This document shows, piece by piece, positions 1-63,978 of a DNA stretch of 64,000 nucleotides. This DNA is from Candidatus Eiseniibacteriota bacterium (GTDB taxonomy: Bacteria > Eisenbacteria > RBG-16-71-46 > CAIMUX01). Where the stretch lies: assembly GCA_963833505.1 (NCBI GenBank), contig CAWHYG010000004.1:223025-287024 (forward strand), read 5' to 3'. A program made the position numbers and the translations under genes. The notes beneath the pieces were generated by a model, which saw only the letters and a program-made list of their open reading frames with translations, searched no databases and was not told where the DNA came from. Every line of letters starts with the position of its first letter. Position 1 is the first letter of the stretch.

Positions 1-60
1 CGCCTGGCCCGGTTCAAGACCGGGGCGCAGGACTCGCGCAAACCCTGATCGGCGCGCGCT

Positions 61-75
61 CCGGCCTCGCGCCGG
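61..75 (-). terminator. Putative stem-loop (ccggc-ctcgc-gccgg) immediately 3' of the stop of the 85..1726 gene. The same motif recurs after the 1831..4638 gene.
   Basis: The palindrome 'ccggcctcgcgccgg' followed by the palindrome 'gacgcgcgtc' is seen directly. There is no U-tract, which is common in high-GC genomes. Confidence 0.3.
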
Positions 76-84
76 AGACGCGCG

Positions 85-1726
85 TCAGCGGTACAGGCTC
101 TTGATCTGGCCCCAGGTTCGGACCGACACCGGAACGACCACACAGGGACTGGGGTTGCAGGTCGTGCCTGGACCCATCCATTGGCCCTGACAGTTCGCCT
201 GGGTCGTGATGGTGCAGACCTCATTGATGCAGCAAGCGCCGACCGGCGGCGGCGGGCAGGGATTCGGCGCGCATACGCTGCCGGGGCCCTGCCACGTGCC
301 TCCTTCCTGCTGACAGGTGGACCTGGTCAGCACCACACAACTTCCATCCGCGAAACAGCAAGCCCCGCTGGCCGGCTGCGTGCCGGATACGTAGGCGGCG
401 ATCCCAAGCGCCTGCGTCGGACCCCAGATGATCGATGGATCCGCCCACCCCGTCGGATAGCCGATCCCGGGGGCGATGTTCGTGCGCGGCTTGCCGCGCA
501 TTCCGTCCAGATCGGCTGCGACGCCCCAACCGGGGGTCCCGTCGGGCCACTCGCCCCAATATCCGACGAAGAAGTCGCCATTCACCGGCTCGTCCGAGGT
601 GTCGATATCGTGCAGGGTGACCTTCGGCCAGACTCCCGGAGCCGAGATCGAGATCCCGAAATCCACGTTGATCACGCTGGTCGGATTGCACCCGTCGGAA
701 TTCCACAGGTAGGCATCGAGCCTTTGACCGCTGTACATTCCGGGCTCAGCGGTCAGGGCGTACTGCTGGCCGCAGACGGTTCCAGTCGCGTTGTAGCCTT
801 CGGCAAAGGCTCCGTAGTACGGAGCTGTCTCGCCCCCGTACCACCATGTATATGCGCTTTCATAGGTTCCGTCCGCATTCATGTAGAGGTCCGAGCCGGG
901 GCAGGGATTGTTTCGGCGGCCCGCGTCCAAGCGGCCGACTCCATTCCCGACCGACCATGCTGTCTTCCCGCCATGGGCGAGGAGGCTGCCGCCGCGGGCA
1001 GGCACGGTCCCGCTACGGGTGATCGCGCCACTCTTGAATCGCGCCTTCTGGTAGCAGGGGTTCGGCGAGCAGGTCGAGCTTGGACCCAGCCAGTATCCGG
1101 CGCAGTCGGCCAGCGTTGTCATGCTGCAGGCGCCGCAAATGCAGCAGGCGCCGACGGCCACCGGGCAGGGATTTGGATTGCAGATGGTGTTCGCCCCCAT
1201 CCACTGGCCGGAGCAAGTCAACTGGGTCGTGATGGTGCAGGCCCCGTTGATGCAGCAGGCGCCCGACGGCGGGCACGGGTTCGGATTGCACACCGTGTTC
1301 GGACCCATCCACTGGCCGGAGCAGCCGGTCTGGAACGTGATCGTGCAGGTGCCGTTCGCACAACATGCGCCCGGCTGGGGACAGGGATTCGGGCTGCAGA
1401 CTGTGTTCACGCCCTGCCACGTGCCGCCGGCCTGCGAGCACGCCGCCTGCGTCAAGAGCCGGCAGGTGCCGTCCGGGAAGCAGCAAGCGCCCATAGACCT
1501 TCCACACGTCGATGGCGCCGGGACCGGATCCATCGATCCGGCTCACCGCGTTGACACAGGAAGACAAGGGAGCGATGCCGCAGTAGTCCGAGGTGTCCAC
1601 GGTGTACGAGAGGCCGGGGTAGTGGACGATGAGAGTTCCGCCGGCATTCGGTCCGGCCAGGACGAACGGGGCCGCGGTGCCCATTGTCGCCAACACAACC
1701 AGGAGGACATTCACGAGTCGCCGCAT
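85..1726 (-). pseudogene. Truncated tandem paralog of the Cys-rich-repeat secreted protein at 1831-4638. The N-terminal domain reads in one frame and the repeats in another, consistent with a deletion plus a 1-nt frameshift.
   Basis: The frame starting at the ATG at 1726 encodes a signal peptide plus 'AGPNAGGTLIVHYPGLSYTVDTSDYCG...VWKVY', nearly identical to the N-terminus of the 4638 gene. About 1 nt out of frame (ORF 85..1533) follow 5+2 'GACC...PNPCP' repeats, the conserved approximately 190-aa C-domain and the '...TWGQIKSLYR' tail. The junction lies at about 1490-1530. A GGAGG RBS precedes 1726. Confidence 0.5.
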
Positions 1727-1806
1727 CTCACACGCTCCTTCCGCCGGCTCCGCTTCTGGGCCGGGGCGCAAAGCTCGAGGCCCAGCGTTCCGTAACGGTG
1801 CGCCTT

Positions 1807-1821
1807 CCGGCCTCGCGCCGG
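1807..1821 (-). terminator. Putative stem-loop terminator 3' of the 1831..4638 gene. It is the same 'ccggcctcgcgccgg' motif as at 61-75.
   Basis: Identical palindrome, positioned just after the stop at 1831-1833. Confidence 0.3.
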
Positions 1822-1830
1822 AGACGCGCG

Positions 1831-4638
1831 TCAGTGGTACAGGCTCTTGATCCGCCCCCAGGTCTGGATCGAGACGGGAACCGGGGGCGGAGGACCCGTA
1901 AGAATGTAAGCGCCGATCCCGATGGCCTGGGTCGGACCCCAGATCACCGACACGTTGCTCCAACCGGTCGGGTAGCCAATCCCGGGCGCGATGTTCGTCC
2001 GCGGCATGCCGCCGAAGCCGTCGAGGTCGGCGCCGATGAACCAGCCGGCGATTGCGCCCGGCCATTCGCCCCAGTAACCCACGAAGAAGTTGCCGGCGAG
2101 CACCTCGTCCGTCGTGTTGATGTCGGCCAGCGTGAAGCTCGGCCAGATCGCCGGCGTTGAAACGCTCAGGCCGTAGTCGACGTTGATGACGCTGGTCGGA
2201 TTGCAGCCGTCGGAGTTCCAGATGTAGGCGTCGGCCTTCTGGCCTTGGTACATGCCGGACTCGGTCGTGATGGCCCACTGCTGGCCGCAGCAACTACCTG
2301 TCGCGTCGTAGCCCTCGGCAAAGGCGCCGTAGTACGGCGCCACCTCGCCGCCATACCACCAGGTGAAGCCGTTCTCATAGGAGCCGTCCGCATTGAGCAG
2401 AAGCGTAGAGCCCGAGCACGGGTTGGTCCGAGGGCCCGCCTTGATCTTGCCGTGCCCGACGCCCACCGAGCGGGCCGTCCGGCCGGAGTGCGCCAGACCC
2501 CTACCGGTATAACGTTTGACCACCGGGCAGGGATTCGGGTTGCAGGTCGTGCCCGCGCCCATCCACTGGCCCTGGCAGTCGGTCTGCGTGGTGATGGTGC
2601 ATTGGCCGCAGATGCAGCAGGCGCCGGTGGGCGGCTGGGGGCAGGGGTTCGGCGTGCACCCCGTGTTCGCTCCCATCCACTGCCCCGGACAGTTCGCCTG
2701 GGTCGTGATGGTGCAAACCCCGTTGACGCAGCAAGCGCCGGCCGGAGGACACGGATTCGGATTGCACGTCGTGTTCGCTCCCATCCACTGCCCCGAGCAG
2801 TTCGCCTGGGTCGTGATCGTGCAGACCCCGTTGATGCAGCAGGCGCCCGCCGGCGGTTGCGGACACGGATTCGGCGTGCAGGACGTCCCCGCGCCCAGCC
2901 AGTTGCCGGTGCAGGCGCTCTGGAGGGTCACCGTGCAGCTTCCGTCAGGCTGGCAGCACGCGCCCGGCTGCGGGCAGGGATTCGGCGAGCAGGTCGTCCC
3001 CGTGCCCAACCAAGTGCCGGTGCAGGCACTCTGGAGGGTCACCGTGCAGCTCCCGTCCGACTGGCAGCACGCGCCCGGCTGCGGGCAGGGATTCGGACTG
3101 CACACCGTGTTCATGCCCTGCCACGTCCCGCCGGCCTGGGTGCACGCCGCCTGCGTCAAGAGCTGACAAGTGCCGTCCTTGAAACAGCAAGCGCCTTCAG
3201 GCTGCGGGCACGGGTTCGGCGTGCAGGTCGTGTTCGCGCCCATCCATTGGCCCGAGCAGGCAGACTGGGTCGTGATGGTGCAGGCCCCGCTGACGCAGCA
3301 GGCGCCTGACGGCGGGCACGGGTTCGGATTGCACACCGTGTTCGAACCCATCCACTGGCCTGAGCAGCCGGCCTGGAGCGTGATCGTGCAGGTCCCGTTG
3401 GCACAACATGCGCCCAGTTGGGGACAGGGATTCGGGCTGCAGACCGTGTTCGGGCCTTGCCACGAGCCACCGGCCTGCGAGCACTCCGCCCGGTTCAAGA
3501 GCTGGCAGGTGCCATCCGGAAAGCAGCAGGCGCCTTGGAGCTGCGTGCACGGATTCGGGTTGCACACGGTGTTCGGACCTTGCCACGTGCCGCCGGCCTG
3601 CAAGCACGCCGCCGGTCTCAAGAGCTGGCAGGTGCCGTCCTTGAAGCAGCAGGCGCCGATCGGCTGCGGACACGGGTTCGGCGTGCAGGTGGTGTTGTCG
3701 CCCTCATACGTGCCGCCCTGCGCGGTGCAGCCGGTTCTCGTCAGAACCTGGCAGCTTCCATCGGCGAAGCAGCAAGCGCCGGTCGGCCCCGTGCACGGAT
3801 TCGGCGTGCAGGTGGTCTTGTCGCCCTGATAGGTGCCGCCCTGCGACAAGCAGTTGGCCTTCGTCAGGACCTGGCAGGTGCCGTCGTTGAAGCAGCAGGC
3901 ACCCGTCGGCTGCGGGCAGGGGTTGGGATCGCACGAGGTGTTGTCACCCAGATACGTGCCGCCCTGCGAAGCGCAGTTGGTCTGCGTCAGGATCTGGCAG
4001 GTGCCGTCCTTGAAGCAGCACGCGCCCGTCGGCAGGACCACCGGGCAGGGATCATTGCCCGCCGTGCTGAACCCCATCGTTCCATAGGCATCGATTGGAT
4101 CCACCTTCGGCGGGATGGAGTCGTCGGTAAAGTCTCCCCCGAGCGACGGGTTCGGCCCGAGGGTGAAGGTGCCGGCACCTCCGGTGACGTACCCGGCGAA
4201 CCAATAGCACTCCACCAGGATCGTGGTCTGCGGGTTGTCCCAGATCACGGAGTTGCCTGTCCCCGAGCGCGGCCAGGTGTTGTCCGGGAACTCGACATCC
4301 CCGCAGGTGCCGTATTCCTGGGCTGGAATCGTGAGATTCCCGGAGTAGGTGATCCCGAAGCTCACGCCCTTGAGACGAGGGCTGCTGCCACCGACGAAGG
4401 CCGCATAGACCTTCCAGACCTTGACGGCTGACGGGCCGGACCCGTCGATCTCGCTCACCGCGTTGACACAGGAAGACAAGGGAGCGAGACCGCAATAGTC
4501 GGCAGTGTCCGCGGTGTAGGAGAGGTCGGGGTAGTGGACGATGAGAGTTCCGCCGGCATTCGGTCCGGCCAGGGCCCACGGGGCCGCGGTGCCCAAGGCC
4601 GCCATCACCACCAGGAGGACACTCACGATTCGCCGCAT
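1831..4638 (-). CDS. Large secreted Cys-rich repeat protein. It has a signal peptide, a conserved N-terminal approximately 85-aa domain, about 13 tandem 37-42-aa six-Cys repeats, a conserved approximately 190-aa C-domain and a 'TWGRIKSLYH' tail.
   Basis: 935-aa ORF with a GGAGG RBS 9 nt upstream and a hydrophobic signal peptide 'MRRIVSVLLVVMAALGTAAPWALA'. The repeat is 'GACCF(K/N/A/P)DGTCQ(L/V)LTxxxCxxxGGT(W/Y)QGxNTxCxPNPCPQP', alternating with a shorter 'GACCxNGxCTITTQxxCSGQWMGxNTxCxPNPCP' subtype. The C-terminus is shared with gene 85..1726. Confidence 0.8.
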   Translation of the reverse strand: MRRIVSVLLVVMAALGTAAPWALAGPNAGGTLIVHYPDLSYTADTADYCGLAPLSSCVNAVSEIDGSGPSAVKVWKVYAAFVGGSSPRLKGVSFGITYSGNLTIPAQEYGTCGDVEFPDNTWPRSGTGNSVIWDNPQTTILVECYWFAGYVTGGAGTFTLGPNPSLGGDFTDDSIPPKVDPIDAYGTMGFSTAGNDPCPVVLPTGACCFKDGTCQILTQTNCASQGGTYLGDNTSCDPNPCPQPTGACCFNDGTCQVLTKANCLSQGGTYQGDKTTCTPNPCTGPTGACCFADGSCQVLTRTGCTAQGGTYEGDNTTCTPNPCPQPIGACCFKDGTCQLLRPAACLQAGGTWQGPNTVCNPNPCTQLQGACCFPDGTCQLLNRAECSQAGGSWQGPNTVCSPNPCPQLGACCANGTCTITLQAGCSGQWMGSNTVCNPNPCPPSGACCVSGACTITTQSACSGQWMGANTTCTPNPCPQPEGACCFKDGTCQLLTQAACTQAGGTWQGMNTVCSPNPCPQPGACCQSDGSCTVTLQSACTGTWLGTGTTCSPNPCPQPGACCQPDGSCTVTLQSACTGNWLGAGTSCTPNPCPQPPAGACCINGVCTITTQANCSGQWMGANTTCNPNPCPPAGACCVNGVCTITTQANCPGQWMGANTGCTPNPCPQPPTGACCICGQCTITTQTDCQGQWMGAGTTCNPNPCPVVKRYTGRGLAHSGRTARSVGVGHGKIKAGPRTNPCSGSTLLLNADGSYENGFTWWYGGEVAPYYGAFAEGYDATGSCCGQQWAITTESGMYQGQKADAYIWNSDGCNPTSVINVDYGLSVSTPAIWPSFTLADINTTDEVLAGNFFVGYWGEWPGAIAGWFIGADLDGFGGMPRTNIAPGIGYPTGWSNVSVIWGPTQAIGIGAYILTGPPPPVPVSIQTWGRIKSLYH

Positions 4639-4904
4639 CTCACACGCTCCTTCCGCCGGGCCGGTTCAAAACCGGGGCGCAGGACCATCGCGAACTTCGA
4701 GACCGATCGAGCGGCAGAATCCCGGAAGCGAGGAGGGCCAGGTTCAGGAGCGTGCAGCTCGACCCTGGATTTTCAGACGCTGTAATTCTACTAATGAGAA
4801 ATCGCGTTGTCAAGAAGACCCCTCGATCGCTGCGACGCGATCGCAGGTCTCCTCGTCTCTGTCGATTGAGCTCCATGCGACATTCGAAACCGGCAAGGCC
4901 GTAC

Positions 4905-5048
4905 TGAGAGGTCCGCAGGGGAAGGGCCGCTCCGGCGAGTTACGGCAGGGGCCGCTCGCCTGGGGCGGTGGTTCTGGGAAACTCCGCGTCGCGGCGCCCG
5001 CCGTCTGTTTGAGCCGGAGCGGCCCCTTCCCGGAGGACCTCGCCCCCA
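4905..5048 (+). repeat. MITE-like or structured-RNA-like repeat element of about 145 bp with about 30-bp imperfect terminal inverted repeats (copy A).
   Basis: About 85% identical to the reverse complement of 33085..33237. The ends 'gagaggtccgcaggggaagggccgctccggc' and 'gccggagcggccccttcccggaggacctc' are inverted repeats of each other. It is intergenic, between the Cys-rich gene and tkt. Confidence 0.6.
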
Positions 5049-5161
5049 AATCCGATCGACAAGCGGCAGTCGGGCGTCAATCCGGCGATGCTCGGAGCGG
5101 GCCGCTGCGGTATCGTGATCGGGACCGAGCGTGAATCGCAGCAATCCGGCAGGAGAATTCC

Positions 5162-22883: not shown

Positions 22884-23084
22884 GTCCAGGCTGGAGGCGC
22901 GCTCCTTTGCCGCCGGGCTCTCTGTCGCCTGGGCGGGCTCCCATGGGAGCGGTGGCGCTGTAAGTTCGGCATCTTCCCCGGTGAGCCCCCGGGGCGTCTA
23001 CCTGCGGAGATTCGGAGATTCTGCCCGCATCGGGGACCCCTCTGCCTCGACCCTGCTGGCCGGTCCGCTTGGTCAGCGCGCCGG

Positions 23085-23892
23085 CTGGCTGGCCGGCCGC
23101 CGAACCAAGACGACCTGGTCAAGCGGGACGCTCTGATTCCGCCTGATTCCGCCGAACCATGACGAGTCGGTCATCCGGGACGCTCTGATTCCGCCGAACC
23201 ATGACGCCTCGGTCATCCGGGACGCTCTGATTCCGCCGAACCATGCCGCCTCGGTCATCCGGGACGCTCTGATTCCGCCGAACCATGACGACCTGGTCAA
23301 GCGGGACGCTCTGATTCCGCCGAACCATCACGCCTTGGTCAACCGGGACGCTCTGATTCCGCCGAACCATGACGCCTTGGTCAACCGGGACGCTCTGATT
23401 CCGCCGAACCATGACGACCTGGTCAAGCGGGACGCTCTGATTCCGCCGAACCATGACGAGTCGGTCATCCGGGACGCTCTGATTCCGCCGAACCATCACG
23501 CCTCGGTCAACCGGGACGCTCTGATTCCGCCGAACCATCACGCCTTGGTCAACCGGGACGCTCTGATTCCGCCGAACCATCACGCCTTGGTCAACCGGGA
23601 CGCTCTGATTCCGCCGAACCATGACGCCTTGGTCAACCGGGACGCTCTGATTCCGCCGAACCATGACGCCTCGGTCAACCGGGGCGCTCTGATTCCGCCG
23701 GACCATGACGACCTGGTCAAGCGGGACGCTCTGATTCCGCCGAACTACGACGCCTCGGTCAACCGGGACGCTCCTGTTCCGCCGAACTACGACGCCTCGG
23801 TCAACCGGGACGCTCTGGTTCCGCCGAACCAGGACGCCTCGGTCGTCCAAGGCGGTTCGCCCCCGCCGAGGTACGAGGTTCTGGTCAACCGG
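23085..23892. repeat. Tandem array of about 18 units of a 42-bp repeat. Each unit has a 24-bp invariant core 'gacgctctgattccgccgaaccat' plus an 18-bp segment with 8 related variants. The first unit carries a 10-bp internal duplication and the last units are degenerate.
   Basis: Units begin at 23179, 23221, 23263 and so on with exact 42-bp phase. Both the + frame (DALIPPNHDxxVxR)n and the - frame (VRRNQSVPVDxGVM)n are open but have only TTG starts. Confidence 0.85.
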
Positions 23893-24329
23893 GGCGGCCC
23901 ACCGGCGCGTGACGAACTCGTCTCATAAACCGACCGAGATTCCGCTCCCGATCGCCGATTCCGGGCATTCCGATCACGGATCCAGAGCCGAGCCGAAGCC
24001 GGGAGATCCCCCCCACAACGTGGCTCTGAGGGATACCCGCGCGGCCCCAGCGGTCAACAGTTGGTCGAACCTCCTTCCCGCTCGGAGCGACGACAGCCCT
24101 CCGCTTCCACCGGGGCGGACTCGACTCATCCGGAAACCGGTCTCGGGTTCCTGGTATCGCCGGCACAGGAGCAACCAATGATCACGCATAGAGCTACGAT
24201 TGCCAGGTCGCGCATTCTCTCCACTCCAGGCCTTCCTCGCCAGCCTCCTCGCCCACGTTATTCATGAACTCCCGGCTGCGGCAGCGGTACCACGGAGTTC
24301 CAGGCCCCCATGCCGGGCTCGCGGCATTC

Positions 24330-33084: not shown

Positions 33085-33237
33085 TGGGGGCGAGCTCCTA
33101 CGGGAAAGGGCCGCTCCGGCTCAAACAGACGGCGGGCGCCGCGCCGAAGTTTTCCAGGACGAACCGCCCGATGCGGGCGGCGCCTGCCGTAACTCGCCGG
33201 CGCGGCCCTTTCCCTGCGGACCTCTCAGAATGGCCTT
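33085..33237 (-). repeat. MITE-like repeat element, copy B, in inverted orientation relative to copy A at 4905..5048
   Basis: The reverse complement aligns with 4905..5048 at about 85% identity, including both terminal inverted repeats. It is intergenic, between the flotillin gene and thrS. Confidence 0.6.
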
Positions 33238-33347
33238 GATGGTTCCGAATTCCGCATTCACGCCAACTGCCCGGTTCCCTCTGAGCCCGGATCCCGCTAA
33301 CATGACCCGATCCATCGGGCAGGTTATCGGGCAGATCGGAGGAATCC

Positions 33348-36452: not shown

Positions 36453-37877
36453 CTACCGCACGAGGGTCGCGGGTGCGGACCACCGGCGTCCGGCGGCATC
36501 GGTCACGACCAGGAAGTACCGGCCCGCGGGCGCGGGTCCGCCCCGGCTGTTCCGGCCGTCCCAGGTGATGGTGGTCCCGCCGGCCGGCACCGGGCCGAGA
36601 GCCCAGGACTGGACCGGGATTCCGAGGACATCGATCACCCGGGCCTGCATCCAGCCGGCGGAGGGCACGCGCAGGTCCCAGGTGATCCGGTCGCGGCTGG
36701 GATTCGGGTGGCCGGGGGAGAGGACAAGGCTTGTGATCCCGTGCGCCGGCTCGGGAGCCGAGGAGGCCGTGCAGCCCTGCCCCCGGGCACCGATCAACTG
36801 CTGGCACGGGCTGTTCTGCGGCAGGCATGGGGAGATGTTGGTCAGGGTCCAGTCGCCGTCCGTCGTTTGCGAGCAGGCTACAGGACCGCAAAACTCCGGG
36901 TCGGTGTAGACGCAGTGGGCGTCGTATTGGATGGCGACGCCATCCCACGAGTACATGCTTGTGGTATCTACGTCGCTGCAGGCGAAAGCGGCTCCATTCA
37001 TGGCTGCCCACAGCTCGCCGCCCTGCTCGGGTGCGCAGTTTCCCCAGAGTATGCACCGTGTGAGCATCGCTTTTTGGTTTGTTTCCACGCCGCCGCCGAT
37101 GGTGCTCGAAACGTTCGCGGTGATCGTGCATCCGGAGAGGGCGTCGCCGTCGTAACCGTCCGCGAAGCATACGCCTCCCCCGCCGCCTTCTCCAGCTCGG
37201 TTCCCCGAGATCAGGCAGTTCGTGATCCGAACGTCGATGTTGAATCGGGTCAGGATCCCTCCGCCGCCATCATCTGCCTTGTTTCCGCTGATCACGCAGT
37301 GGTCCACCACCCCGCCAAAGTCGAGCAAACAGATTCCCCCTCCGTCGTAGGCGTGGCAGTCGAGGATCCGGCACTGTGAGATCGTCGGCCCGCTGGCCTC
37401 GCAGAGAATGCCTCCGCCATCGGGGTAGTTGTCATCGTTAAGTCCGGTGCCGTTCTCGATCGTGAGGTTTTCGATCCGCGAATGGGAGCCCTCCCACTCA
37501 TGCACCCAGAATCCGCGCCCGAGACCCTGGCAGTCGAGGATGGTCTGACCGGCGCCTCCACCCGAAGTCACATCTACAGCTAGGCCGTGGAGCTCGATGT
37601 CCCGGTTGCCGGGGCCGGAATAGGTCCCCGGAGCGATGAGCACGATGTCTCCATCGACGCTGCTGTTGATCGCCGCCTGGATGGTCGGGTAGTCGCCGGG
37701 AACGTGCCGCACGGTCGCGTCCGCCCGGCTTGCGAGACCCGCAAACCCGAGCAGCGCGGCGATGGAACGGACGAGGAACAAGGACCGGGACGATCGAGGG
37801 ATACCGGCGAGGGCGTTCATGGCATGCCTCCGAGAAGCCGTGCGCCCAGACGGCACCGGGCGCACGGCTCTCTTCAT
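36453..37877 (-). CDS. Secreted right-handed beta-helix (pectate-lyase-like) repeat protein with a FlgD-Ig/T9SS-like C-terminal domain
   Basis: Signal peptide, 'NCxISGNxA..GGG' parallel beta-helix repeats, and a C-terminus '...GRYFLVVTDAAGRRWSAPATLVR'. It is a paralog of 62560..63978. Confidence 0.75.
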   Translation of the reverse strand: MKRAVRPVPSGRTASRRHAMNALAGIPRSSRSLFLVRSIAALLGFAGLASRADATVRHVPGDYPTIQAAINSSVDGDIVLIAPGTYSGPGNRDIELHGLAVDVTSGGGAGQTILDCQGLGRGFWVHEWEGSHSRIENLTIENGTGLNDDNYPDGGGILCEASGPTISQCRILDCHAYDGGGICLLDFGGVVDHCVISGNKADDGGGGILTRFNIDVRITNCLISGNRAGEGGGGGVCFADGYDGDALSGCTITANVSSTIGGGVETNQKAMLTRCILWGNCAPEQGGELWAAMNGAAFACSDVDTTSMYSWDGVAIQYDAHCVYTDPEFCGPVACSQTTDGDWTLTNISPCLPQNSPCQQLIGARGQGCTASSAPEPAHGITSLVLSPGHPNPSRDRITWDLRVPSAGWMQARVIDVLGIPVQSWALGPVPAGGTTITWDGRNSRGGPAPAGRYFLVVTDAAGRRWSAPATLVR

Positions 37878-48576: not shown

Positions 48577-50112
48577 ATGAGTCCTCCGGGCCAGGTCGTC
48601 ACTCGGACGCGGGGAGAGCAGGCGGACATGGTCGGGCCGAAGAAAACTCCGGAGTTCCTGGGCCGCTTCCGGTTTCACCGGGGTGCCGGTCGCGGTTCGG
48701 CCGCTCACCAGCGGGGTTTCGAATTCATGATGGGATTGTTCATCCGCCAGGGCCCGGGCAGTGGATCGTTTCTCCCTCTCGAGGCGGGGGAAAGCCCCTA
48801 TGTGCTGGGCCGCTCGCCGGAAGCGACCATCCGGCTTGAAGGCGAGGGCGTCTCGCGCCGGCACGCAGAGATTGCCTATGCTCGCGGCCGCTGGATGGTG
48901 CGTGACCTCGGGAGCCGGAACGGCACCTTTGTGAACTCGCTCCCGGTGCGCGAGAGCGAGCTTTCGCCGCGGGACGTGATTGTCCTGGGAACGATTGAGC
49001 TTCTCGTCGTCCTGCGGGAGCCGGGCACTGAACCTCCCAGGACTCCGAACTGCGAGGACGCATCCGGCACGCTGCCGCTCGCCCTGACGCCGCTCGTCGG
49101 CCTGGTCGGCGAGAGCGGTTCCATGCAGGCCGTGCGTGATGCCATCCGCCGGGTGGCCCCCCTCGACGTGACCGTGGTGCTTCGCGGGGAGTCCGGAACC
49201 GGGAAAGAGCTGGTGGCGAGGGCCATCCATGCAGCGAGCACCCGCCGGGCGGGTCCTTTCGTGACGGTGAACTGCGCGGCCATCCCCGAGGCTCTCGTGG
49301 ACAGCGAGCTCTTCGGTCACGAACGGGGCGCCTTCACCGGCGCGACTTCGGAACGCATGGGTCGATTCGAAGAGGTCTCCGGGGGGACCCTTTTTCTCGA
49401 TGAAGTCGGTGACCTGCCCTTGGCGGTGCAGGCGAGCCTTCTCCGGGTGCTGGAGGACGGCATCCTGAGGCGCGTGGGAGGGAAAAAGGACCTGCGCGTG
49501 GACGTGCGCGTGGTGGCCGCGACGCATCGCGACCTGGAACGGGCCGTCCGCCGGGGCGGGTTCCGGAACGATCTCTACCACCGCCTCAACGTCTTCGAAA
49601 TCGCGATCCCGCCGCTGCGGGATCGGGTCGAGGACCTCCCGCTTCTTGCCGCTCATTTCTTCTCCGGGATCTCGGCCACGATCGGCTGCGCTCCTCTCCG
49701 GCTGTCGGACGAGGCGATGGCGCTCCTCCGTTCCCATCCCTGGCCGGGAAACGTCCGCGAACTTCGAAACGTGCTCGAGCGGGCCGCGATCAGCGCCCGT
49801 TCCGCCGTGATCGGGCCGGGGGATATCCAACTCGCGCCGCTTTCCCTCGCGATCGGGGAGAGTGAGGACCAGGACGCGGACAGCATCCCGGCCGCGAGCG
49901 GGAGCGCCTTCGGCAGCAGAACCGGTGCGAGCCCTCCCCGCGGCGAATCGCTGCCCGAGCATCTCACGCAACGGGAACGCGACATCGTCAGGGCCGCCCT
50001 CGAAGCGTCGCACTGGAACCAGTCGGAGGCCGCCCGCCGGCTGGGCGTCTCGGAGTCGAAGATCCGGAAGTGCATCCGCCAGTACGGGATCGAACGCCCG
50101 GGGACGAAGTAG
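48577..50112 (+). CDS. Sigma-54-dependent transcriptional activator with an N-terminal FHA domain
   Basis: The FHA region reads '[27 protein letters not shown]...[13 protein letters not shown]'. The AAA+ domain carries 'GESGTGKE' and 'GAFTGA', and the C-terminus has a Fis-type HTH. The start may instead be the internal ATG at 48727. Confidence 0.85.
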
Positions 50113-50609
50113 GCGAGGACCGACCGCGCCGCCTGGGGTGACGCGCCGTTCATGCTCGCCCGTGGATCGCGCCCTCTGTCGCACTGGGGCCCTGCAGGCT
50201 CGATGTGACATCTTGTCCGACGTTTGGCCGGGCGCACAGGTCCTCCGGGAAAAAACCTCTCAGACCGACCCTGCCGGTTACGAAAGTCCCATTGAGCCTG
50301 CCCCGGTTCGAAGCTCGCCTGTAAGCCTTCCGGCCCGTCCGATCGTACGACCCATTCGTCCGCCTGGACGAATGGTGCCGGCCAAGCCTGAAAGCAAGCG
50401 AGCCCCCTAACCCGCTCCGTAGCGCCCAACCTCCCTTCATGGTCGGAATCCCGCGCACGACAAGGCGCGGATGCACCGGTTGCCCGCGGCCGTCAGCCGC
50501 ATTCATTCCCTGGCACCCTGATTGCAAACAGAGCGTTCGAACCAGGCCTCCGCGGTACTGGTCACAAGGGTCATCGTTTTTCCAGAGGAGATCGAGAAGG
50601 AGGATGTCC

Positions 50610-58136: not shown

Positions 58137-58978
58137 CCGGTGAAAGCGGCAGCGACAAAGCAAGACTGATCGTGGTGCTGCAGGCCTGGGGCGGGGGAGG
58201 TCCGGAGGTCTGCTCCGAAGAGATCTTGGCGACCCCCTCCGCGCTTCGCGCGGAGGGTCGGTCCTCCTCCGGGGTCGCGCTTCGCGCTCCGTCCTTCGCT
58301 TCGCTTCGGACCTCGACCCGCTCCGCGGGTCTCGCCCTCCGTCCTCCCTGTCGCACGCTCGCTGCGCTCGCTCGGACCCTTGCCCTCCCACGTTTCACAT
58401 GGAAGATGGAAACAGCGACCGCATGGGTCGTTACGTGGAGACGGTGAGCGGTGGTGATGAACCATTGCCTCTTTGACGCCACCGGCTGCAACCCGGCCAG
58501 CGGAAGCCTGTGGCTCATATCCCCGGAGGCCACCCGCATGTCTACCTTCCCCGGGGTTCGCTGCTGCACGTCCCAATACACCCATCCGGCGCTGGGATTG
58601 GGCCGACCCCGCCCGCCTGGCACCAACCCAGAAGGACCTGTATCCCGCCTTCACGGCGGGATCGGACCCCCCGCGGGCACGGAAGAACTCGTCGTCGATG
58701 ACCTTTTGTGGGCTCCCGGAAGCTGACCGTGTCCGGACACAACAATGGTCCGATCGAGACCGGGCCCTGGGTGAACCGCACGTCGGAGAATGAGCGCTGC
58801 CATGGACCACGGCAAGATCGCGGTTCGGACCATCCACGAGATTCGTGTCCCTTCGGCACCGGTGCGTAGGCGCGTCGATTCCCGGGATTCCGCTGGGATT
58901 GGCCGGGGCGCCGCCGTCCGGTGGCGTGTCTCGGTCCCGGGTGGCAGGGAGGCGGGGCGTGAAAGGAGAGAAGCCGGG

Positions 58979-60701
58979 CTACCCCGGCGGGCCTGTCGCC
59001 GGCGCGCTGGTGCCCAGTGCGTCTCGATAGTTCCAGGGCATCCAGCCGGAGGGGTTGGCGGCCGTCTCGCGGGGGTGTCGGAGAACATCGACGAGATAGC
59101 GGAAGGGATCGGCCCCGCTGAGCTCGGCCGTGTGGATCAGGCTCATGAAGAGGTCCCCCACCCGGGCGCCGTTCTGCGTCTTGTAAAAGAGGGAGTTCTT
59201 GCGGTGCACAATGGCGCGCTTCAGAGCTCTTTTCGCAGATCGTGTTATCAAGGGGTGCGCCGGGTTTCCTGAGGAACAACGTGAGCTTGTCCCAGTGCTT
59301 TTCCATATAGGAGATGGCGTCGCCCAGGCCCGAGTTCGGCTCGACCAGGTGCTCCTCGAACTGCTCCCGGCCCCACGTCCTGAGCTTCTCCATGATGGGT
59401 CCGCTCTGGTCCCGGTGAAAGGCGAGGCGCTCCTCGGTTCCCATCTTCCGCTCGCGAGCGAGAGCGTCGTTCCGGTAGACCGCGCGCAAAGTCTCGAACA
59501 CGTAGCGGCATTCGTCGGGGAAGCGATCGGCCACCTGGACGAAGTTCCTCCTGGCATGGACGAGACAGCTCCCCACGATCGTCTCAAAGTCTCCGCTGGT
59601 GTTCCGGGAGAGCGCATCGCACATCTGGATGGGCGGGGACAACTCCTCCGCCCGTCGCTTCAGCACCTGCTCCAGGTTCTCTCCCGCGTGCTTGCGACCG
59701 GTGAAGAAGAGCGCCATCCGGTGCTCTCCCGTCCGTGAGACAATCCCGGAGGTGAAGATCCCGGTGCGCTCCTTGGGATCCTTTTCGGGTTCCGGCCGGC
59801 CGACGGCCTCCACGTCGGGATCGGCCTCCGTTTCCCCCACGAGATCCGTTCGGATGCCTGGCATCACCTCTCGGTTCGACGACTTCATCAGCTCGAGAAC
59901 CTTCATCGTGGTGTCGTCATTGTAGAAGACCTCCCCCTGGGCGGCCTGTCGGATGAGCTCCTCATGAACCGGTTCGAGCGCTTTGGCGCCGCCGGCCACC
60001 AGTTCCCATTGCGTGGCGGCGGGCAACGGGATGCCCAGGCTGCCCTCCAGCTTCTCCAACCGGTTGAAAGGAAGGCCGCAACCGTAGCGGAGAAGTCCGA
60101 TCATAGCCGTGGCCGATTCGTCGTACTTCGCCGTACCGACCCCCGGGGGCGGTTCGGCCGAGAAAACCTGGCCGCAGGCGTTGCAGCGGAGGCGCTCCAG
60201 CTCGAAGACCGAAGCTTGCAAGGGAGCCATCCCCGTGATCCGCAGCAGAGAGGCCGGTTCGTTCTGCAGGTACACCTTCCCGCGGCCGCACTCGGGACAC
60301 CCGGCGCCGTGCGTCAGCGACGCGTGCGGCACCGGCACCTTCTTCGCGCCCCAGTAGGCTTCCACTCCATGGCGGCCGTGCCCATGAGGCTTCACGGCCG
60401 ATGCTTCCTTCGACGGCGAGCCGGTCGCGCCGGCCTCTCCACCGGCGGCGGCATGGCCCTCGAACACGTCCCGGAGCACCCGGCTCGTCTTCTCCGTGCT
60501 CGGCCCGAAGAGCAACCGCCGCAGCCGATCGATCGAGGTCCCCTTCGACTCCAGCTCCCGGGTCAGAAAGCCCAGCGTATCCACCGCTGCCCTCAGCTTC
60601 CCGTGCTCCTCCGCATTCAAAGCCCCTTCTCGGGTCCGCTCGAGGATCGCCTCCAGTTCCTTCCACTCGACCTCGCGGCGCCGCATCTCTCGTCGATTCA
60701 T
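58979..60701 (-). pseudogene. tnpC: IS66 family transposase TnpC, frameshifted (+1) at an A-run near 59223-59228
   Basis: The N-terminal coiled-coil/zf-IS66 reads 'MNRREMRRREVEWKELEAILERT...'. The DDE core contains 'NDDTTMKVL'. The canonical C-terminal module 'RALKRAIVHRKNSLFYKTQNGARVGDLFMSLIHTAELSGADPFRYLVDVL' is in a different frame (ORF 58979..59617). Confidence 0.8.
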
Positions 60702-61612
60702 GCCGACCTCGTGAGGTGTTCCCGAAAGTGCCGGGTCAGCGGATAGACAAGCACATCCTTGCGCGGACGGTTGGGCCGACCGGTCTGGTCGTTCTTGCCC
60801 CGACCCGTCGTTTGACCCACGCAGATCCAGTTCGCCGCCCGGTAACAGGTGCCGCGCCACCGGGTGCGGTCGACGAAGGTCTCAGCCAGGTGAACCGGAT
60901 GGTGGTACCACCACTCCCATTCCCCCGGAAGCATCCGTACCATCCGACCGAGCAGATGGGACGCCAAATGCGGGACTTCCACCCAGGGCAGGATGAGGAA
61001 CCGGCTGTTGTAGCCGACGAAGCGGATGTTCTCGCGCCGGGCCTGAGCCGACCAACCGATGAACCGATCCCGCGGGCCGAGATGGCGGGGCGCCGAGGTC
61101 CAGAGAAAACAGGCCACCGGCCGGCCGGCCGCGAAGACCAGGTGCTTCAGGTGCTCGCCCACCGGTCGCGTGAAGCCGAGGTAGTGATGTCTTCGGATCA
61201 GGCCGTCGAACCTTCGCTCTTCCTCGGTCCGCCGCACCTGACGGAAAGTCAACGAACCCAGTTCCGCCAACGAACCGCGGATCGGCGGGGCTTCCCACGG
61301 AAGAAGCGTCGGCTCCGGTGACGGCCGCGATCGGTCGGGCATCTTCATGCGCGGCGGCGGCAGCGTGATCTCGCCCGCACGGTCCAGGGCCAGGAGCAAC
61401 CCGCGGCAGACACCATCGCGCGGGTATCCGTTCGGTTGCATCCAACCCCAGGCCGCGCACAGTTCGAGCGACAGGGCGCGCCGACTCGCACTCGGGTTCT
61501 TCGCCAGAAGCTCGCGGACCAAGAGCACATCCGACTCGGTGATCGGACGGCCTCGATACTGCAGAACCGTGCTCATGCGGAAGGGAATAACCGAGGGCGG
61601 AAAAGAACGCAA
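60698..61612 (-). CDS. DUF4338-like protein (the domain family that includes Druantia DruA, recalled from memory), carried as a passenger inside the IS66 element
   Basis: 304 aa with the motifs 'IRRHHYLGFTRPVGEHLKHLVF', 'FLWTSAPRHLGPRDRFIGW', 'RFLILPWVEVPHLASHLLG' and 'GTCYRAANWICVGQTTGRG'. Its stop overlaps the tnpC ATG as ATGA. Confidence 0.5.
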   Translation of the reverse strand: MRSFPPSVIPFRMSTVLQYRGRPITESDVLLVRELLAKNPSASRRALSLELCAAWGWMQPNGYPRDGVCRGLLLALDRAGEITLPPPRMKMPDRSRPSPEPTLLPWEAPPIRGSLAELGSLTFRQVRRTEEERRFDGLIRRHHYLGFTRPVGEHLKHLVFAAGRPVACFLWTSAPRHLGPRDRFIGWSAQARRENIRFVGYNSRFLILPWVEVPHLASHLLGRMVRMLPGEWEWWYHHPVHLAETFVDRTRWRGTCYRAANWICVGQTTGRGKNDQTGRPNRPRKDVLVYPLTRHFREHLTRSA

Positions 61613-61655
61613 GAGAAAAAACGATCGCCGGAAGAAAAGAGGGGGGCGCCCAGTC

Positions 61656-62018
61656 TCACGCCCCCACCGTGACCCGACGCCAGATCGGCGCCGCCCGGGT
61701 CGAACCGGGATCTCCGCCGGAGAAGAGCACCGCCAGCTCGTGCGCCCGCATCGAGCTCGCCCGCTCCTTCTCGTCCGCGGGCCACCAGCGGAATCGGCCG
61801 CTCGAGAGACGCTTGTAGCAAAGCCAAAAGCCTTGGCCGTCGTACACGATCACCTTGAGGCCCGTCCCACGACGATTGCGGAACACAAAGACCGTGCCGG
61901 AGAACGGATCAGCCTTGAGGACGCTCCGACACACGCGCGAGAGACCGTCGATGCCGCAGCGGAAATCCGCCGGTTCCACCGCCACCAAGACCCGCATCTG
62001 CGGGGTGATCTGGAGCAT
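61656..62018 (-). CDS. tnpB: IS66 family accessory protein TnpB (IS66 Orf2)
   Basis: 121 aa 'MLQITPQMRVLVAVEPADFRCGIDGLSRVCRSVLKADPFSGTVFVFRNRRGTGLKVIVYDGQGFWLCYKRLSSGRF' matches IS66 Orf2. The track ORF extends to 62453 in-frame, but that part overlaps tnpA. Confidence 0.8.
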   Translation of the reverse strand: MLQITPQMRVLVAVEPADFRCGIDGLSRVCRSVLKADPFSGTVFVFRNRRGTGLKVIVYDGQGFWLCYKRLSSGRFRWWPADEKERASSMRAHELAVLFSGGDPGSTRAAPIWRRVTVGA

Positions 62019-62446
62019 CAGCGTTGCTTCCAGAGAGCGGCGGCCAGGACCAGCACCTCCGCACGTTCGTGGGTCGACAACCGGACGACGAGCCGGGAAC
62101 CGTCGGCTCCCCAGAGCTCCACCGCCGGGCCGTCGATCGTGGATCGCCCGAGCAACGACTCCGCGCCGAGTTCGACGAACCGAGTCGGTCCTCTCTTCTC
62201 CGCGCCTGCCTCGGCGCCGGCGACCCTCCGCTTCAGGGCGCCGTAGTCGAGACGCAAGGCCCGCGAGATGGGAGCGATGCCGTGCAACCGCGCCAGGAAA
62301 ACCGCGGCTTCCCACAGCTTCTCCGGCATCGCCCGCGAATCGCGATGCCGACGCCAATGCTCGATGCGGGTCCGAAGCCCATGCACCCGGGCGGGGAGTG
62401 CTCCGTCCTTCCTTGCCATGAGTCGTCCTCCTTTGGGTCCGTCCAC
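62018..62446 (-). CDS. tnpA: IS66 family TnpA-like (Orf1) protein
   Basis: 142 aa, basic and helix-rich. It sits immediately upstream of tnpB and overlaps it by 1 nt, as is usual for IS66. Confidence 0.6.
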   Translation of the reverse strand: MDGPKGGRLMARKDGALPARVHGLRTRIEHWRRHRDSRAMPEKLWEAAVFLARLHGIAPISRALRLDYGALKRRVAGAEAGAEKRGPTRFVELGAESLLGRSTIDGPAVELWGADGSRLVVRLSTHERAEVLVLAAALWKQR

Positions 62447-62559
62447 GACTCATGACGGTAGGGGGAGGCTACGCGCGAATCACGCAGCCGGGCCGAAGGG
62501 ACACCGAGATTCTGGTGGAGAGGCTTCCGGGATAGGGTTGCGTTAAGATCACCCCGCCC

Positions 62560-63978
62560 TTACCGCACGATGGTCGCAGGCGCGGACCACGAGCGCCCGC
62601 CGGCAGCGGTCACGATGAGGAAGTACCGGCCCGGAGCCGCCGCAGCTCCGCGAGAGTTCCGGCCGTCCCAGACGATGGTCGTCCCACCAGCGGGTACCTG
62701 ACCGAGAGCCCAGGACTTGATCCGGCTCCCCAGGACATCGACGACCTTGGCGCTCAGCCAGCCGCGGCTGGGAACTTGGAGCTGCCAGGCAATCCGGCCG
62801 GCGCTCGGATCGGGCCGTCCCGCGGACAAGCCGGAGCCTTCCGGCGGGCGGGTCTGCCCCGGGACTCCCGAAGGATCACTGCATCCCTGTCCCTCCGCGC
62901 CGATCAACTGGCCGCAGAGGCTGCGTTGGGGCAGGCAGAGCGAAAGGCTGTTGAGCGTCCAGTCACCGGCCGTGGTCTGGCTGCAGGCGACCGCGCCGCA
63001 GAACATCGGGTCGCTGTAGATGCAGGAAGGATCGTATTGGATGGCGCCGGATTCAGTGTATACACCGGTGGAATCGATGTCAGTGCAGGTAAGGCCACTC
63101 CCGCCGCTCGAGTAGAGCTGAGCCCCTAGACCCGGCGAGCAGTTGCCCCAGACGATCGATCGCTCCAGCGTAGACTGACCAATGAGCATGCCACCTCCAC
63201 CCGCCTCAGAGTAGTTAGCCGAGATCGTGCAGTTGTTGATGAGTTCTTGGTCCTCCACCAGGATGCCGCCGCCGCCGTACTTGCCGTTGTTGCCCGTGAT
63301 CACGCAATCGGTGATAACGGTCCCGGAGTCAAAGTAGACGTACATGCCCCCCCCACGTCGGCCAGAGTTTCCGGAGATGACACATCCGCTGACCGTCGAC
63401 CCGTAGACGTAAAGGGCAAGCCCTCCCCCCTCGTCACCCGTACAGTTGATGATCTTGCAGTTCCTGATCACCGGGGAAGCCGTGTCGCAGAGGATGCCGC
63501 CGCCGTCGTCATCGGGTTGCAGCCCGAGCGAGTTCCCGTTCTCGATCGTCAGCCCCTGGATGCACGCGGTGCTCGGCTCGAAATGTCCCACGTTGAATCC
63601 GCGTCCGGCGTTCTGGCAGTCAATGATCGTCTGGTCGGCTCCCGCCTGGGATGTGATCACGATGTCCTTGCCCTTGAGGTCGATGTTCCGGTTCCCCGAG
63701 CCCCGGTAGATCCCCGGGCTGATCAGCACGGTGTCCCGGTTGGCCGAGTTGTCGATCGCGTTTTGGATGGTCGGATAGACCTGGGGAACCAATCGGGTTT
63801 TGGCCGACGTCTTGCCGGGGCCGCTCCATAGGAGGATTACGGCAGCGAGGATCGGAAGGCAGCCCCTGCGGCCATTGCGGACAGGTCGATTCCAATGAGA
63901 TGCAGTCGCCACAGGAAACCTCCCGGGAGGGCGCGCTCCGCAACAGGCCGGGGCGCGCCTCGATCCGTCAGCGTACAA
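62560..63978 (-). CDS. Secreted right-handed beta-helix repeat protein with a FlgD-Ig/T9SS-like C-terminal domain, paralog of 36453..37877
   Basis: The signal region is 'CLPILAAVILLWSG'. The motif 'VYPTIQNAIDNSANRDTVLISPGIYRGSGNRNIDL' aligns with the paralog. The C-terminus reads '...GRYFLIVTAAGGRSWSAPATIVR'. Confidence 0.75.
   Translation of the reverse strand: MYADGSRRAPACCGARPPGRFPVATASHWNRPVRNGRRGCLPILAAVILLWSGPGKTSAKTRLVPQVYPTIQNAIDNSANRDTVLISPGIYRGSGNRNIDLKGKDIVITSQAGADQTIIDCQNAGRGFNVGHFEPSTACIQGLTIENGNSLGLQPDDDGGGILCDTASPVIRNCKIINCTGDEGGGLALYVYGSTVSGCVISGNSGRRGGGMYVYFDSGTVITDCVITGNNGKYGGGGILVEDQELINNCTISANYSEAGGGGMLIGQSTLERSIVWGNCSPGLGAQLYSSGGSGLTCTDIDSTGVYTESGAIQYDPSCIYSDPMFCGAVACSQTTAGDWTLNSLSLCLPQRSLCGQLIGAEGQGCSDPSGVPGQTRPPEGSGLSAGRPDPSAGRIAWQLQVPSRGWLSAKVVDVLGSRIKSWALGQVPAGGTTIVWDGRNSRGAAAAPGRYFLIVTAAGGRSWSAPATIVR

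What the first reader, a model, noticed from the sequence alone, without database searches (positions are those of the whole stretch)
4905..5048. An approximately 145-bp element with about 30-bp terminal inverted repeats, present twice in opposite orientation (MITE or structured sRNA candidate)
4905-5048 and the reverse complement of 33085-33237 align at about 85% identity over their whole length, including both inverted-repeat ends ('gagaggtccgcaggggaagggccgctccggc ... gccggagcggccccttcccggaggacctc'). Both copies are intergenic: one upstream of tkt, the other upstream of thrS. Being in opposite orientation relative to the downstream genes argues for a mobile miniature element or a REP-like element rather than a strand-specific cis-regulator. 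The long imperfect hairpin could still be transcribed as an sRNA.
Basis: seen in the sequence. Interest (0 to 1): 0.65.

Follow-up and report, generated by a model that had tools for sequence, protein, structure and literature searches.

The report
Small palindromic intergenic repeat, mobile-element-like
A roughly 175-base DNA segment that folds into a long hairpin occurs twice, plus once as a gutted remnant, between genes of an uncultured Eisenbacteria-like bacterium. It looks like an ordinary small parasitic repeat rather than a new regulatory RNA, but only 64 kb could be examined.

Summary
4875-5049(+) and 33085-33257(-) are 87% identical over 175 nt (E 7e-52). The similarity stops at the element's edges, so this is not a larger duplication. 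Each copy has 29-nt inverted repeats and folds into a long hairpin.

Three things are new:
- A third, internally deleted copy lies at 50238-50292(-).
- The hairpin arms and internal loops diverge 5.7% between copies, against 31% for the apex and left box (p = 2e-5).

The tests found nothing that would make it more than a repeat:
- no Rfam match
- no compensatory base-pair changes
- no bias towards one strand
- no target-site duplication
- no matching transposase (the IS66 unit in the window is unrelated)
- no relative in any public collection searched

The source genome itself could not be retrieved. Promoter-like blocks shared with distant relatives lie between the element and the tkt and thrS start codons, and those relatives lack the element.

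Best reading (about 0.55): a lineage-specific, non-autonomous palindromic repeat of the MITE/REPIN kind, sitting in permissive intergenic DNA. No strict family membership is shown. Interest is low to moderate.

The parts
4875..5049 (+). Copy A, full element (left box + long hairpin + 7-nt tail), between the 935-aa minus-strand gene (start 4638) and tkt (start 5162)
   Evidence: blastn and nhmmer; alignment A3; fold
4875..4907 (+). Left box of copy A. Non-palindromic, shared by all three copies (consensus ATGsGAC-TTCGnAACCggCArGGyC-nnn-CTGA)
   Evidence: Alignments; degenerate-pattern matches at three sites, against 0.4 expected
4908..4936 (+). Copy A, 5' arm of the outer stem (29-nt inverted repeat)
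   Evidence: the repeat finder I5 and I1
4937..4941 (+). Copy A, 5' side of the asymmetric internal loop (GAGTT; the following A opens the inner stem), identical in A and B
4942..5004 (+). Copy A, inner hairpin: 14-nt inner stem arms (4942-4955 and 4991-5004) around a variable 35-nt apex (4956-4990; 14 of 35 positions differ from B)
5005..5012 (+). Copy A, 3' side of the internal loop (CTGTTTGA), identical in A and B. T-rich; together with the inner hairpin it is flagged as terminator-like in copy B only
5013..5041 (+). Copy A, 3' arm of the outer stem (29-nt inverted repeat)
33085..33257 (-). Copy B, full element in the opposite orientation, between the Band_7 gene (ends 33050) and thrS (starts 33348). 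Arms 33196-33224 and 33092-33120
50238..50292 (-). Copy C, remnant. It keeps the left box, CTGAGAGGT, a TT(T) filler and TTCCCGGAGGACCT, and lacks the internal ~114 nt of the hairpin. It lies between a sigma-54 activator gene (ends 50112) and an FG-GAP repeat gene (starts 50439)

Best explanation
The element belongs to a lineage-specific family of short, non-coding, non-autonomous palindromic repeats, the class that includes bacterial MITEs and REPINs. The host is an uncultured, 66% G+C, Eisenbacteria-like bacterium.

A full unit is about 175 bp. It consists of a 33-nt non-palindromic left box, a 134-nt hairpin, and a 7-nt GCCCCCA tail. The hairpin has a 29-bp outer stem, a conserved asymmetric internal loop (GAGTT / CTGTTTGA), a 14-bp inner stem and a variable apex.

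Shown here:
- The copies are discrete, dispersed and intergenic.
- They lie upstream of the native promoter-like signals of the neighbouring genes.
- One copy has lost its hairpin core.

Inferred, not shown:
- The copies were spread by a transposase encoded elsewhere in the genome that recognises the conserved arms and internal loop.
- I lean towards a single-strand, hairpin-recognising mechanism like that of IS200/IS605 and RAYT enzymes (about 0.3), over a DDE cut-and-paste MITE mechanism (about 0.25). The reasons are the asymmetry of the unit, the absence of a target-site duplication, and the asymmetric remnant.
- Any effect on tkt, thrS or other neighbours would be a by-product, for example a hairpin in read-through transcripts.
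For: - Discrete repeat: two full copies are 87% identical with sharp boundaries. A third, internally deleted copy is what a decaying repeat family would leave.
- Intergenic and non-coding: all three copies lie between genes. Every reading frame through the element either carries stops or shows no codon-position G+C signal.
- Uneven divergence: arms, internal loops and tail differ at 6 of 106 positions. The left box and apex differ at 21 of 68 (Fisher p = 1.9e-5). Conserved arms with a variable spacer is the pattern described for REPINs (PMC3116915).
- No sign of selection on RNA pairing: no compensatory pairs, and each copy carries its own stem mismatches. G-U pair counts are the same on both strands.
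- The element looks like an addition. Promoter-like blocks shared with distant relatives lie between the element and the start codons: GGCCGCTGnGGTATCnTG before tkt and CCAACT..CGGTTCCC-N18-TAnCAT before thrS. Those relatives lack the element.
- Copy A also lies outside the near-consensus sigma-70 promoter of the 935-aa gene (TTGACA-17-TAGAAT).
- Asymmetric excisions that leave part of the conserved ends have been reported for REPINs (PMC3116915). Copy C resembles such a footprint.
- The nearest tkt relative carries a different intergenic palindrome with the same geometry: 29-nt arms and an 80-nt spacer.
Against: - Repetitiveness at genome scale is therefore not shown.
- No target-site duplication is visible at either plausible boundary.
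- The inverted repeats are not terminal on the left side.
- No transposase with matching ends is in the window. The IS66 unit is unrelated. No Y1/RAYT-type gene was found among about 50 ORFs scanned with Pfam.
- The individual arms do not fold as REP-like short stem-loops.
- No related sequence was found in any public collection.
- The perfect conservation of both internal-loop strands could instead reflect a cellular function.
Confidence: 0.55

Rival explanations
1. It is a small family of paralogous structured RNAs, either sRNA genes or cis-acting leader or 3'-UTR structures. The long hairpin and its conserved asymmetric internal loop would be the functional part, for example a protein-binding site.
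For: - The hairpins are stable on either strand.
- Both internal-loop strands are 100% conserved, while the apex differs at 14 of 35 positions.
- The loop can be drawn with tandem G.A pairs next to the outer stem (my reading of the sequence, not tested).
- In reverse-complement orientation, all three copies point towards a downstream gene.
- The inner hairpin followed by TCTGTTTG is flagged as terminator-like in copy B.
Against: - No Rfam family matches at gathering score, and nothing credible appears at E <= 10.
- No compensatory change is seen. Each copy has its own uncompensated stem mismatches.
- There is no strand asymmetry in energy or in G-U content.
- No promoter consensus sits in front of the element in either orientation.
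- Copies A and B sit upstream of the promoter-like blocks of the neighbouring genes, so they are probably outside those transcripts.
- Copy C has lost the hairpin but kept the box.
- Relatives with 66-73% identical tkt or thrS have nothing similar.
- The internal-loop conservation is not significant on its own: 16 nt at 13% divergence stay unchanged with p of about 0.1.
Confidence: 0.12
2. It is a DNA-level regulatory or architectural site. The 33-nt left box, which contains TTCGnAACC and is partly duplicated in B and C, would bind a regulator. The hairpin or cruciform would act as an insulator or terminator between transcription units.
For: - The left box is present in all three copies, including the one without a hairpin.
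- In each case the box is on the side nearest a downstream promoter: 62 nt from the -35 of the 935-aa gene and 16 nt from the thrS promoter-like block.
- B and C lie downstream of unidirectional genes, where a terminator would be useful.
Against: - The distances from the box to the start codons vary: 237, 91 and 147 nt.
- The neighbouring genes are functionally unrelated: a Cys-rich secreted repeat protein, thrS and an FG-GAP protein.
- No U-tract follows the full hairpin.
- The box is the less conserved part, differing at 7 of 33 positions between A and B.
- No sigma-54, ECF or sigma-70 spacing fits the box (my reading of the sequence).
- Relatives keep the promoter blocks but lack the box.
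Confidence: 0.1
3. It is a one-off duplication or gene conversion of a palindromic intergenic segment. There would be no mobile family and no function, and the copies seen here would be essentially all that exist.
For: Only two full copies are documented. No target-site duplication, no transposase and no relatives elsewhere were found.
Against: - Three separate sites lie within 46 kb, in both orientations, with sharp boundaries and no shared flanks.
- About 13% divergence and an independently deleted copy imply several old events.
- Uneven conservation is not expected from a single neutral duplication.
Confidence: 0.13

Closest known systems
REPINs (REP doublets forming hairpins) mobilised by RAYT tyrosine transposases, known in Pseudomonas, E. 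coli and Nostoc (PMC3116915; PMC3733652)
   Same: - Extragenic, about 100-150 nt.
- Two conserved inverted arms around a less conserved spacer.
- The whole unit folds into one long hairpin in single-stranded DNA or RNA.
- No target-site duplication.
- Decayed and partial remnants are common, and reported excision footprints are asymmetric and leave part of the conserved ends, as in copy C.
   Different: - The arms here are not themselves short REP stem-loops.
- No conserved GTAG or CGTC tag sits at the arm ends.
- No RAYT gene was seen in the window.
- Copy number is unknown.
- A 33-nt non-palindromic box is attached on one side.
Bacterial MITEs such as Correia/NEMIS elements of Neisseria, RUP and ERIC (reviews PMC2229807, PMC10969869)
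   Same: - Size of 100-200 bp.
- Inverted repeats of about 26-30 bp.
- Non-coding, intergenic, found in both orientations.
- Able to form long hairpins in transcripts.
   Different: - No target-site duplication (Correia elements duplicate TA).
- The inverted repeats are not terminal on the left.
- No parent IS with matching ends was found.
- No sequence similarity to any described element.
- The host is an uncultured Eisenbacteria-like lineage.
Small non-coding repeats (SNRs) of Deinococcus radiodurans and other G+C-rich palindromic intergenic repeats (recalled from memory, not checked here)
   Same: Mosaic intergenic repeats of 60-215 bp with inverted ends, in a G+C-rich genome.
   Different: No sequence relationship was tested or expected, and the host phylum is different.
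The 138-bp palindrome after tkt in the nearest tkt relative (L004 2819-2956, assembly GCA_040960625.1)
   Same: - Same geometry: 29-nt arms with an 80-nt spacer, against 29 and 76 here.
- Intergenic, with an outer stem, internal loops and an inner stem.
- Shares a 14-mer, CAGGGGCCGCTCGC.
   Different: There is no alignable homology beyond that G+C-rich 14-mer, no left box, and a much more perfect stem. It is probably a different family of the same kind.

Membership tests
MITE (non-autonomous derivative of a DDE insertion sequence) | Short (under about 500 bp) with no coding capacity | tested here: met
   The unit is 175 bp. The six-frame translations carry stops or differ between copies because of an indel. 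The ORF spanning A has flat codon-position G+C of 0.66/0.64/0.67.
MITE (non-autonomous derivative of a DDE insertion sequence) | Inverted repeats at the two termini of the mobile unit | tested here: inconclusive
   Inverted repeats of 29 nt are present, 86% and 83% complementary. But the sequence conserved between copies extends 33 nt beyond the left repeat and 7 nt beyond the right one, so the repeats are not terminal on the left.
MITE (non-autonomous derivative of a DDE insertion sequence) | Target-site duplication flanking each copy | tested here: not met
   No direct repeat flanks A or B, whether the boundary is taken at the edges of conservation or at the edges of the palindrome (direct reading).
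MITE (non-autonomous derivative of a DDE insertion sequence) | A cognate autonomous element with the same ends | tested here: not met
   The only transposon in the window is an IS66-family unit (tnpB 61680-62021, tnpC 58542-60200). It has no similarity to the element (best blastn E 0.3). The rest of the genome is not testable.
MITE / REPIN (any interspersed repeat family) | Many dispersed copies in the genome | not testable with these tools
   The 64-kb window holds 2 full copies and 1 remnant. The source contig of 683 kb is not retrievable, and the public scans found only chance hits.
REPIN / REP-RAYT system | Two conserved inverted units separated by a less conserved spacer, together forming a hairpin, in extragenic DNA | tested here: met
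   Arms and internal loops differ at 6 of 106 positions, the apex at 14 of 35. The single-stranded DNA hairpin is -51 kcal/mol with z of -5. All copies are intergenic.
REPIN / REP-RAYT system | Each unit is itself a short imperfect palindrome (stem 5-13 bp) tagged at one end by GTAG or CGTC (PMC3733652) | tested here: not met
   The arms folded alone are no better than shuffled sequence (z +0.5 and +0.8). GTAG occurs only in B's right arm. CGTC occurs at the 3' end of the inner stem (GCCGTCTG) but not at the arm ends.
REPIN / REP-RAYT system | A single-copy RAYT (Y1 transposase) gene flanked by the repeat | not testable with these tools
   None was found among about 50 window ORFs scanned with Pfam. 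The rest of the genome is unavailable.
Described RNA family (Rfam 15), including the T-box leader expected upstream of thrS in some phyla | A match to a covariance model at its gathering score | tested here: not met
   The whole window gives 0 hits at gathering score. Only sub-threshold noise appears at E <= 10 around A and B.
Intrinsic (Rho-independent) terminator | A G+C-rich hairpin followed directly by a U-tract | tested here: not met
   No U-tract follows the full hairpin on either strand. Only the inner hairpin followed by TCTGTTTG passes the scan, and only in copy B.

The most novel reading that the evidence does not exclude
The element could be a lineage-specific multi-copy functional module rather than selfish DNA. 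It would consist of a structured RNA or DNA hairpin whose invariant asymmetric internal loop (GAGUU / CUGUUUGA, possibly with tandem G.A pairs) binds a protein, coupled to a 33-nt box placed just upstream of promoters of housekeeping and surface-protein genes. That would be a previously undescribed regulatory or insulator device in the uncultured phylum Eisenbacteria.
Probability: 0.1. Interest if true: 0.55.

Novelty: new member of a known kind. Interest (0 to 1): 0.27.

Why it matters
If the reading is right, this is a first sketch of a palindromic interspersed repeat family in an Eisenbacteria-like genome, a phylum known only from metagenomes.

Such repeats are useful as strain markers and as a cause of assembly breaks. 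They can also supply hairpins that alter the stability of neighbouring mRNAs or terminate their transcription. The asymmetric unit and its gutted remnant would be worth comparing with REPIN/RAYT biology if a matching transposase is found.

It does not change any general picture. Short palindromic repeats of this kind are common in bacteria.

Tried and rejected
**Searches for relatives, all negative or chance**
- Genome contigs with the 20-mer CCGCCGTCTGTTTGAGCCGG gave 3 unrelated hits matching only 20-24 nt.
- Metagenome contigs with the two-loop pattern gave 0 hits. The left-box pattern gave 1 hit, inside a coding region.
- Two patterns against viral contigs gave one chance hit.
- blastn in distant mode against plasmids and phages found nothing.
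- A concatenated six-frame peptide query against 5.8 billion proteins, meant to catch spurious ORFs called over other copies, found nothing.
- nhmmer and a covariance model found nothing in about 120 kb of loci from relatives.
- With filters off on the window, the covariance model found only A and B.

**Source genome**
- The exact tkt and thrS proteins exist in the protein collection (P0001, P0122; 683-kb contig).
- The contig could not be fetched.
- The closest thrS relatives, at 73% identity, have no DNA on file.

**Functional readings rejected**
- T-box or any other known leader upstream of thrS: no Rfam hit.
- tRNA or tmRNA fragment as the origin of the TTCGAA-containing box: ARAGORN finds none, and the box does not fit a T-arm.
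- The left box as a promoter: the sigma-70 scan finds nothing there. By my reading, sigma-54 (GG-N10-GC) and ECF (GGAAC-N16-17) spacings do not fit.
- Coding potential: rejected.
- IS66 as the parent element: rejected.
- Extra left-box matches at 20205, 48374 and 51424: these lie in coding sequence and are chance.

**Correction to my own working**
- I first took a 580-aa minus-strand ORF as the gene downstream of copy C.
- Codon-position G+C and Pfam show that the real gene there is a plus-strand sigma-54 activator.

Full report
**Observation**

Reading both loci and aligning them confirms the finding.
- blastn gives 86.9% identity over 175 nt between 4875-5049(+) and 33085-33257(-), E 7.5e-52.
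- The repeat finder reports the same pair (I1/I2). It shows no extension beyond these limits, so the copies are not part of a larger duplicated segment.
- Each copy carries 29-nt inverted repeats: A at 4908-4936 / 5013-5041, 86% complementary; B at 33092-33120 / 33196-33224, 83%.
- These are the two longest local inverted repeats in the 64-kb window.
- Folding is much better than for shuffled sequence. As single-stranded DNA the values are -51.2 and -50.3 kcal/mol, z -5.1 and -4.6. As RNA, z runs from -2.4 to -5.2 on either strand.

**Anatomy**

It has these parts, in A coordinates:
- a 33-nt non-palindromic left box (4875-4907)
- a 29-bp outer stem
- an asymmetric internal loop, GAGTT on the 5' side and CTGTTTGA on the 3' side
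- a 14-bp inner stem
- a 35-nt apex
- a 7-nt tail, GCCCCCA

A third copy lies at 50238-50292(-).
- It keeps the left box (81.6% over 38 nt; nhmmer E 0.004).
- Next come CTGAGAGGT, two or three T, and then 14 of 14 nt of the right arm (TTCCCGGAGGACCT).
- The internal ~114 nt are missing.
- It reads as an internally deleted derivative. It does not look like an empty target site, because it keeps right-arm sequence whose left-arm partner is gone.

**Context**

Pfam scans and codon-position G+C give the flanking genes.
- Copy A lies between a 935-aa Cys-rich repeat protein on the minus strand (start 4638) and tkt (5162, followed by 6PGD and G6PD genes).
- Copy B lies between a Band_7 gene (ends 33050) and thrS (33348).
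- Copy C lies between a sigma-54 activator with an FHA domain (48577-50112, plus strand) and a 1232-aa FG-GAP protein (50439).
- The 580-aa minus-strand ORF next to C is spurious.

A lies between divergent genes, and in reverse-complement orientation all three copies point at a downstream gene. Only B and C are informative, so chance gives this with probability 0.25.

The element lies outside the likely core promoters.
- A near-consensus sigma-70 promoter (TTGACA-17-TAGAAT, 4813 to 4785, minus strand) serves the 935-aa gene and lies between A and that gene.
- A block GGCCGCTGnGGTATCnTG upstream of tkt is shared with the nearest tkt relative, at 70% protein identity (L004).
- A block CCAACT..CGGTTCCC-N18-TAnCAT upstream of thrS is shared with relatives at 71% identity (L009; L014).
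- These relatives lack the element.

**Organism**

- The best named thrS hits are Candidatus Eisenbacteria at 64-67% identity. The closest unnamed hits are at 71-73%.
- The gene order PPK2-WYL-EF-P ... patatin-thrS is shared with L009.
- tkt resembles the Thermales enzyme at about 66% identity.
- The window's own proteins are in the collection, on a 683-kb contig, but the DNA could not be fetched.
- No close relative exists in any collection searched.

**Tests of function**

- Rfam gives no hit at gathering score over the window. Around A and B only noise appears at E <= 10.
- There are no tRNA or tmRNA genes.
- Covariation cannot be assessed with two sequences. What can be seen is 0 compensatory pairs, one G.U to A-U change, and independent uncompensated mismatches in each copy: G.G and G.A in B; G.G, A.C and a G.T wobble in A.
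- Neither energy nor G-U content favours one strand.
- No promoter consensus precedes the element in either orientation. Only the inner hairpin followed by TCTGTTTG passes the terminator scan, and only in B.
- Divergence between A and B is strongly uneven. Arms, internal loops and tail differ at 6 of 106 positions. The left box and apex differ at 21 of 68 (Fisher p = 1.9e-5).

That unevenness means something constrains the arms and internal loop. One candidate is recognition by a mobilising enzyme: only copies with intact recognition parts propagate, so different source copies differ mainly in dispensable parts. The other candidate is a cellular function.

**Search for a parent element and for relatives**

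- An IS66-family unit is present on the minus strand. It has tnpB (PF05717) at 61680-62021, a DDE_Tnp_IS66 domain in 58542-60200, and an end reading ...CCCGCCCTTAC near 62553.
- That unit has no similarity to the element.
- No other transposase, and no Y1/RAYT-type gene, appears among about 50 ORFs scanned.
- No target-site duplication is visible.
- Pattern scans of genome, metagenome and viral collections found only chance matches.
- blastn against plasmids and phages, a six-frame peptide search of 5.8 billion proteins, and nhmmer and covariance-model searches of relatives' loci found none.
- A covariance model run without filters on the window finds only A and B.

**Interpretation**

The best-supported reading, at about 0.55, is a lineage-specific, non-autonomous palindromic interspersed repeat. 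The supporting points are:
- It is discrete, dispersed and intergenic, and it occurs in both orientations.
- It is non-coding.
- Its arms are conserved and its apex is variable.
- One copy is decayed.
- It sits outside native promoter blocks that relatives have without it.

In form it is closest to REPINs: inverted conserved units, a variable spacer, one long hairpin, no target-site duplication, and asymmetric excision footprints that leave part of the conserved ends (PMC3116915). It also resembles MITEs such as Correia elements in size and repeat length (PMC2229807, PMC10969869).

Strict membership fails or is untestable for both:
- The arms are not REP-like stem-loops and carry no GTAG or CGTC tag (PMC3733652).
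- There is no target-site duplication.
- No cognate transposase was seen.
- Copy number is unknown.

I lean slightly towards a single-strand, hairpin-recognising mechanism. The reasons are the asymmetry, the missing duplication and the asymmetric remnant. This is inference only.

The rivals are a paralogous structured RNA (0.12), a DNA-level regulatory or insulator site built on the left box (0.10), and a one-off duplication without mobility (0.13).

**Related observation**

The nearest tkt relative carries an unrelated, nearly perfect palindrome directly after tkt. Its geometry is the same, with 29-nt arms and an 80-nt spacer (L004 2819-2956; -132 kcal/mol, z -7.2). It shares only a G+C-rich 14-mer with the window element. 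Long intergenic palindromes of this size may be a recurring feature of this lineage.

**Verdict**

The finding is most likely an ordinary small palindromic repeat family in a poorly sampled phylum. It is a new member of a known kind, of low to moderate interest. The complete genome would settle copy number, target sites and the mobilising enzyme within minutes.

Noticed in passing
window 58140-62555 (minus strand): An IS66-family unit: a likely tnpA ORF at 62018-62446, tnpB (PF05717) at 61680-62021, and a DDE_Tnp_IS66 domain in 58542-60200. An ORF matching the Druantia DruA family (PF14236, E 9e-25) at 60698-61612 sits between tnpB and tnpC, which is an unusual passenger or fusion for IS66. 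The ends were not mapped with confidence.
   Followed up: partly
L004 2819-2956 (nearest tkt relative, assembly GCA_040960625.1): A nearly perfect 138-bp palindrome directly downstream of tkt: 29-nt arms 93% complementary, 80-nt spacer, -132 kcal/mol, z -7.2. It has the same geometry as the window element but no real homology.
   Followed up: partly
window 33258-33347; L009 9890-10000; L014 1-207: A promoter-like block upstream of thrS, CCAACT..(C)GGTTCCC(C)TC - about 18 nt - TA(A/G)CAT, is conserved across thrS relatives at about 71% identity. L014 also has a ~20-bp hairpin just upstream of the block.
   Followed up: partly
window 5085-5125; L004 700-740: A block GGCCGCTGnGGTATCnTG upstream of tkt is conserved with the 70%-identity relative. 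It is probably the tkt promoter or leader.
   Followed up: partly
window 4785-4813 (minus strand): A near-consensus sigma-70 promoter, TTGACA-17-TAGAAT (11 of 12 matches), in front of the 935-aa Cys-rich repeat protein gene.
   Followed up: no
window 1-4638 (minus strand): Two adjacent paralogous genes for secreted Cys-rich repeat proteins, with repeats of the form TGACCFxDGTCQxL...GGTYxGDxTxCxPNPC and periods of 108-123 nt. Their 5' and 3' ends are conserved (repeats D12, D17, D19), and a shared hairpin follows each stop. Neither has a Pfam match.
   Followed up: no
window 23017-23988: A tandem array of at least 17 copies of a 42-nt unit, up to 95% identical. The coding status of the region is unclear, since ORFs on both strands have atypical composition.
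   Followed up: no
window 36453-37877 (-) and 62560-63978 (-): Paralogous Beta_helix + FlgD_ig genes, about 74% identical at the DNA level over parts of their length (repeats D14-D16). One of them lies immediately beside the IS66 unit.
   Followed up: no
window 48577-50112 (+): A sigma-54-dependent activator with an N-terminal FHA domain, next to remnant copy C. No sigma-54 promoter consensus was recognisable in the adjacent intergenic region.
   Followed up: partly
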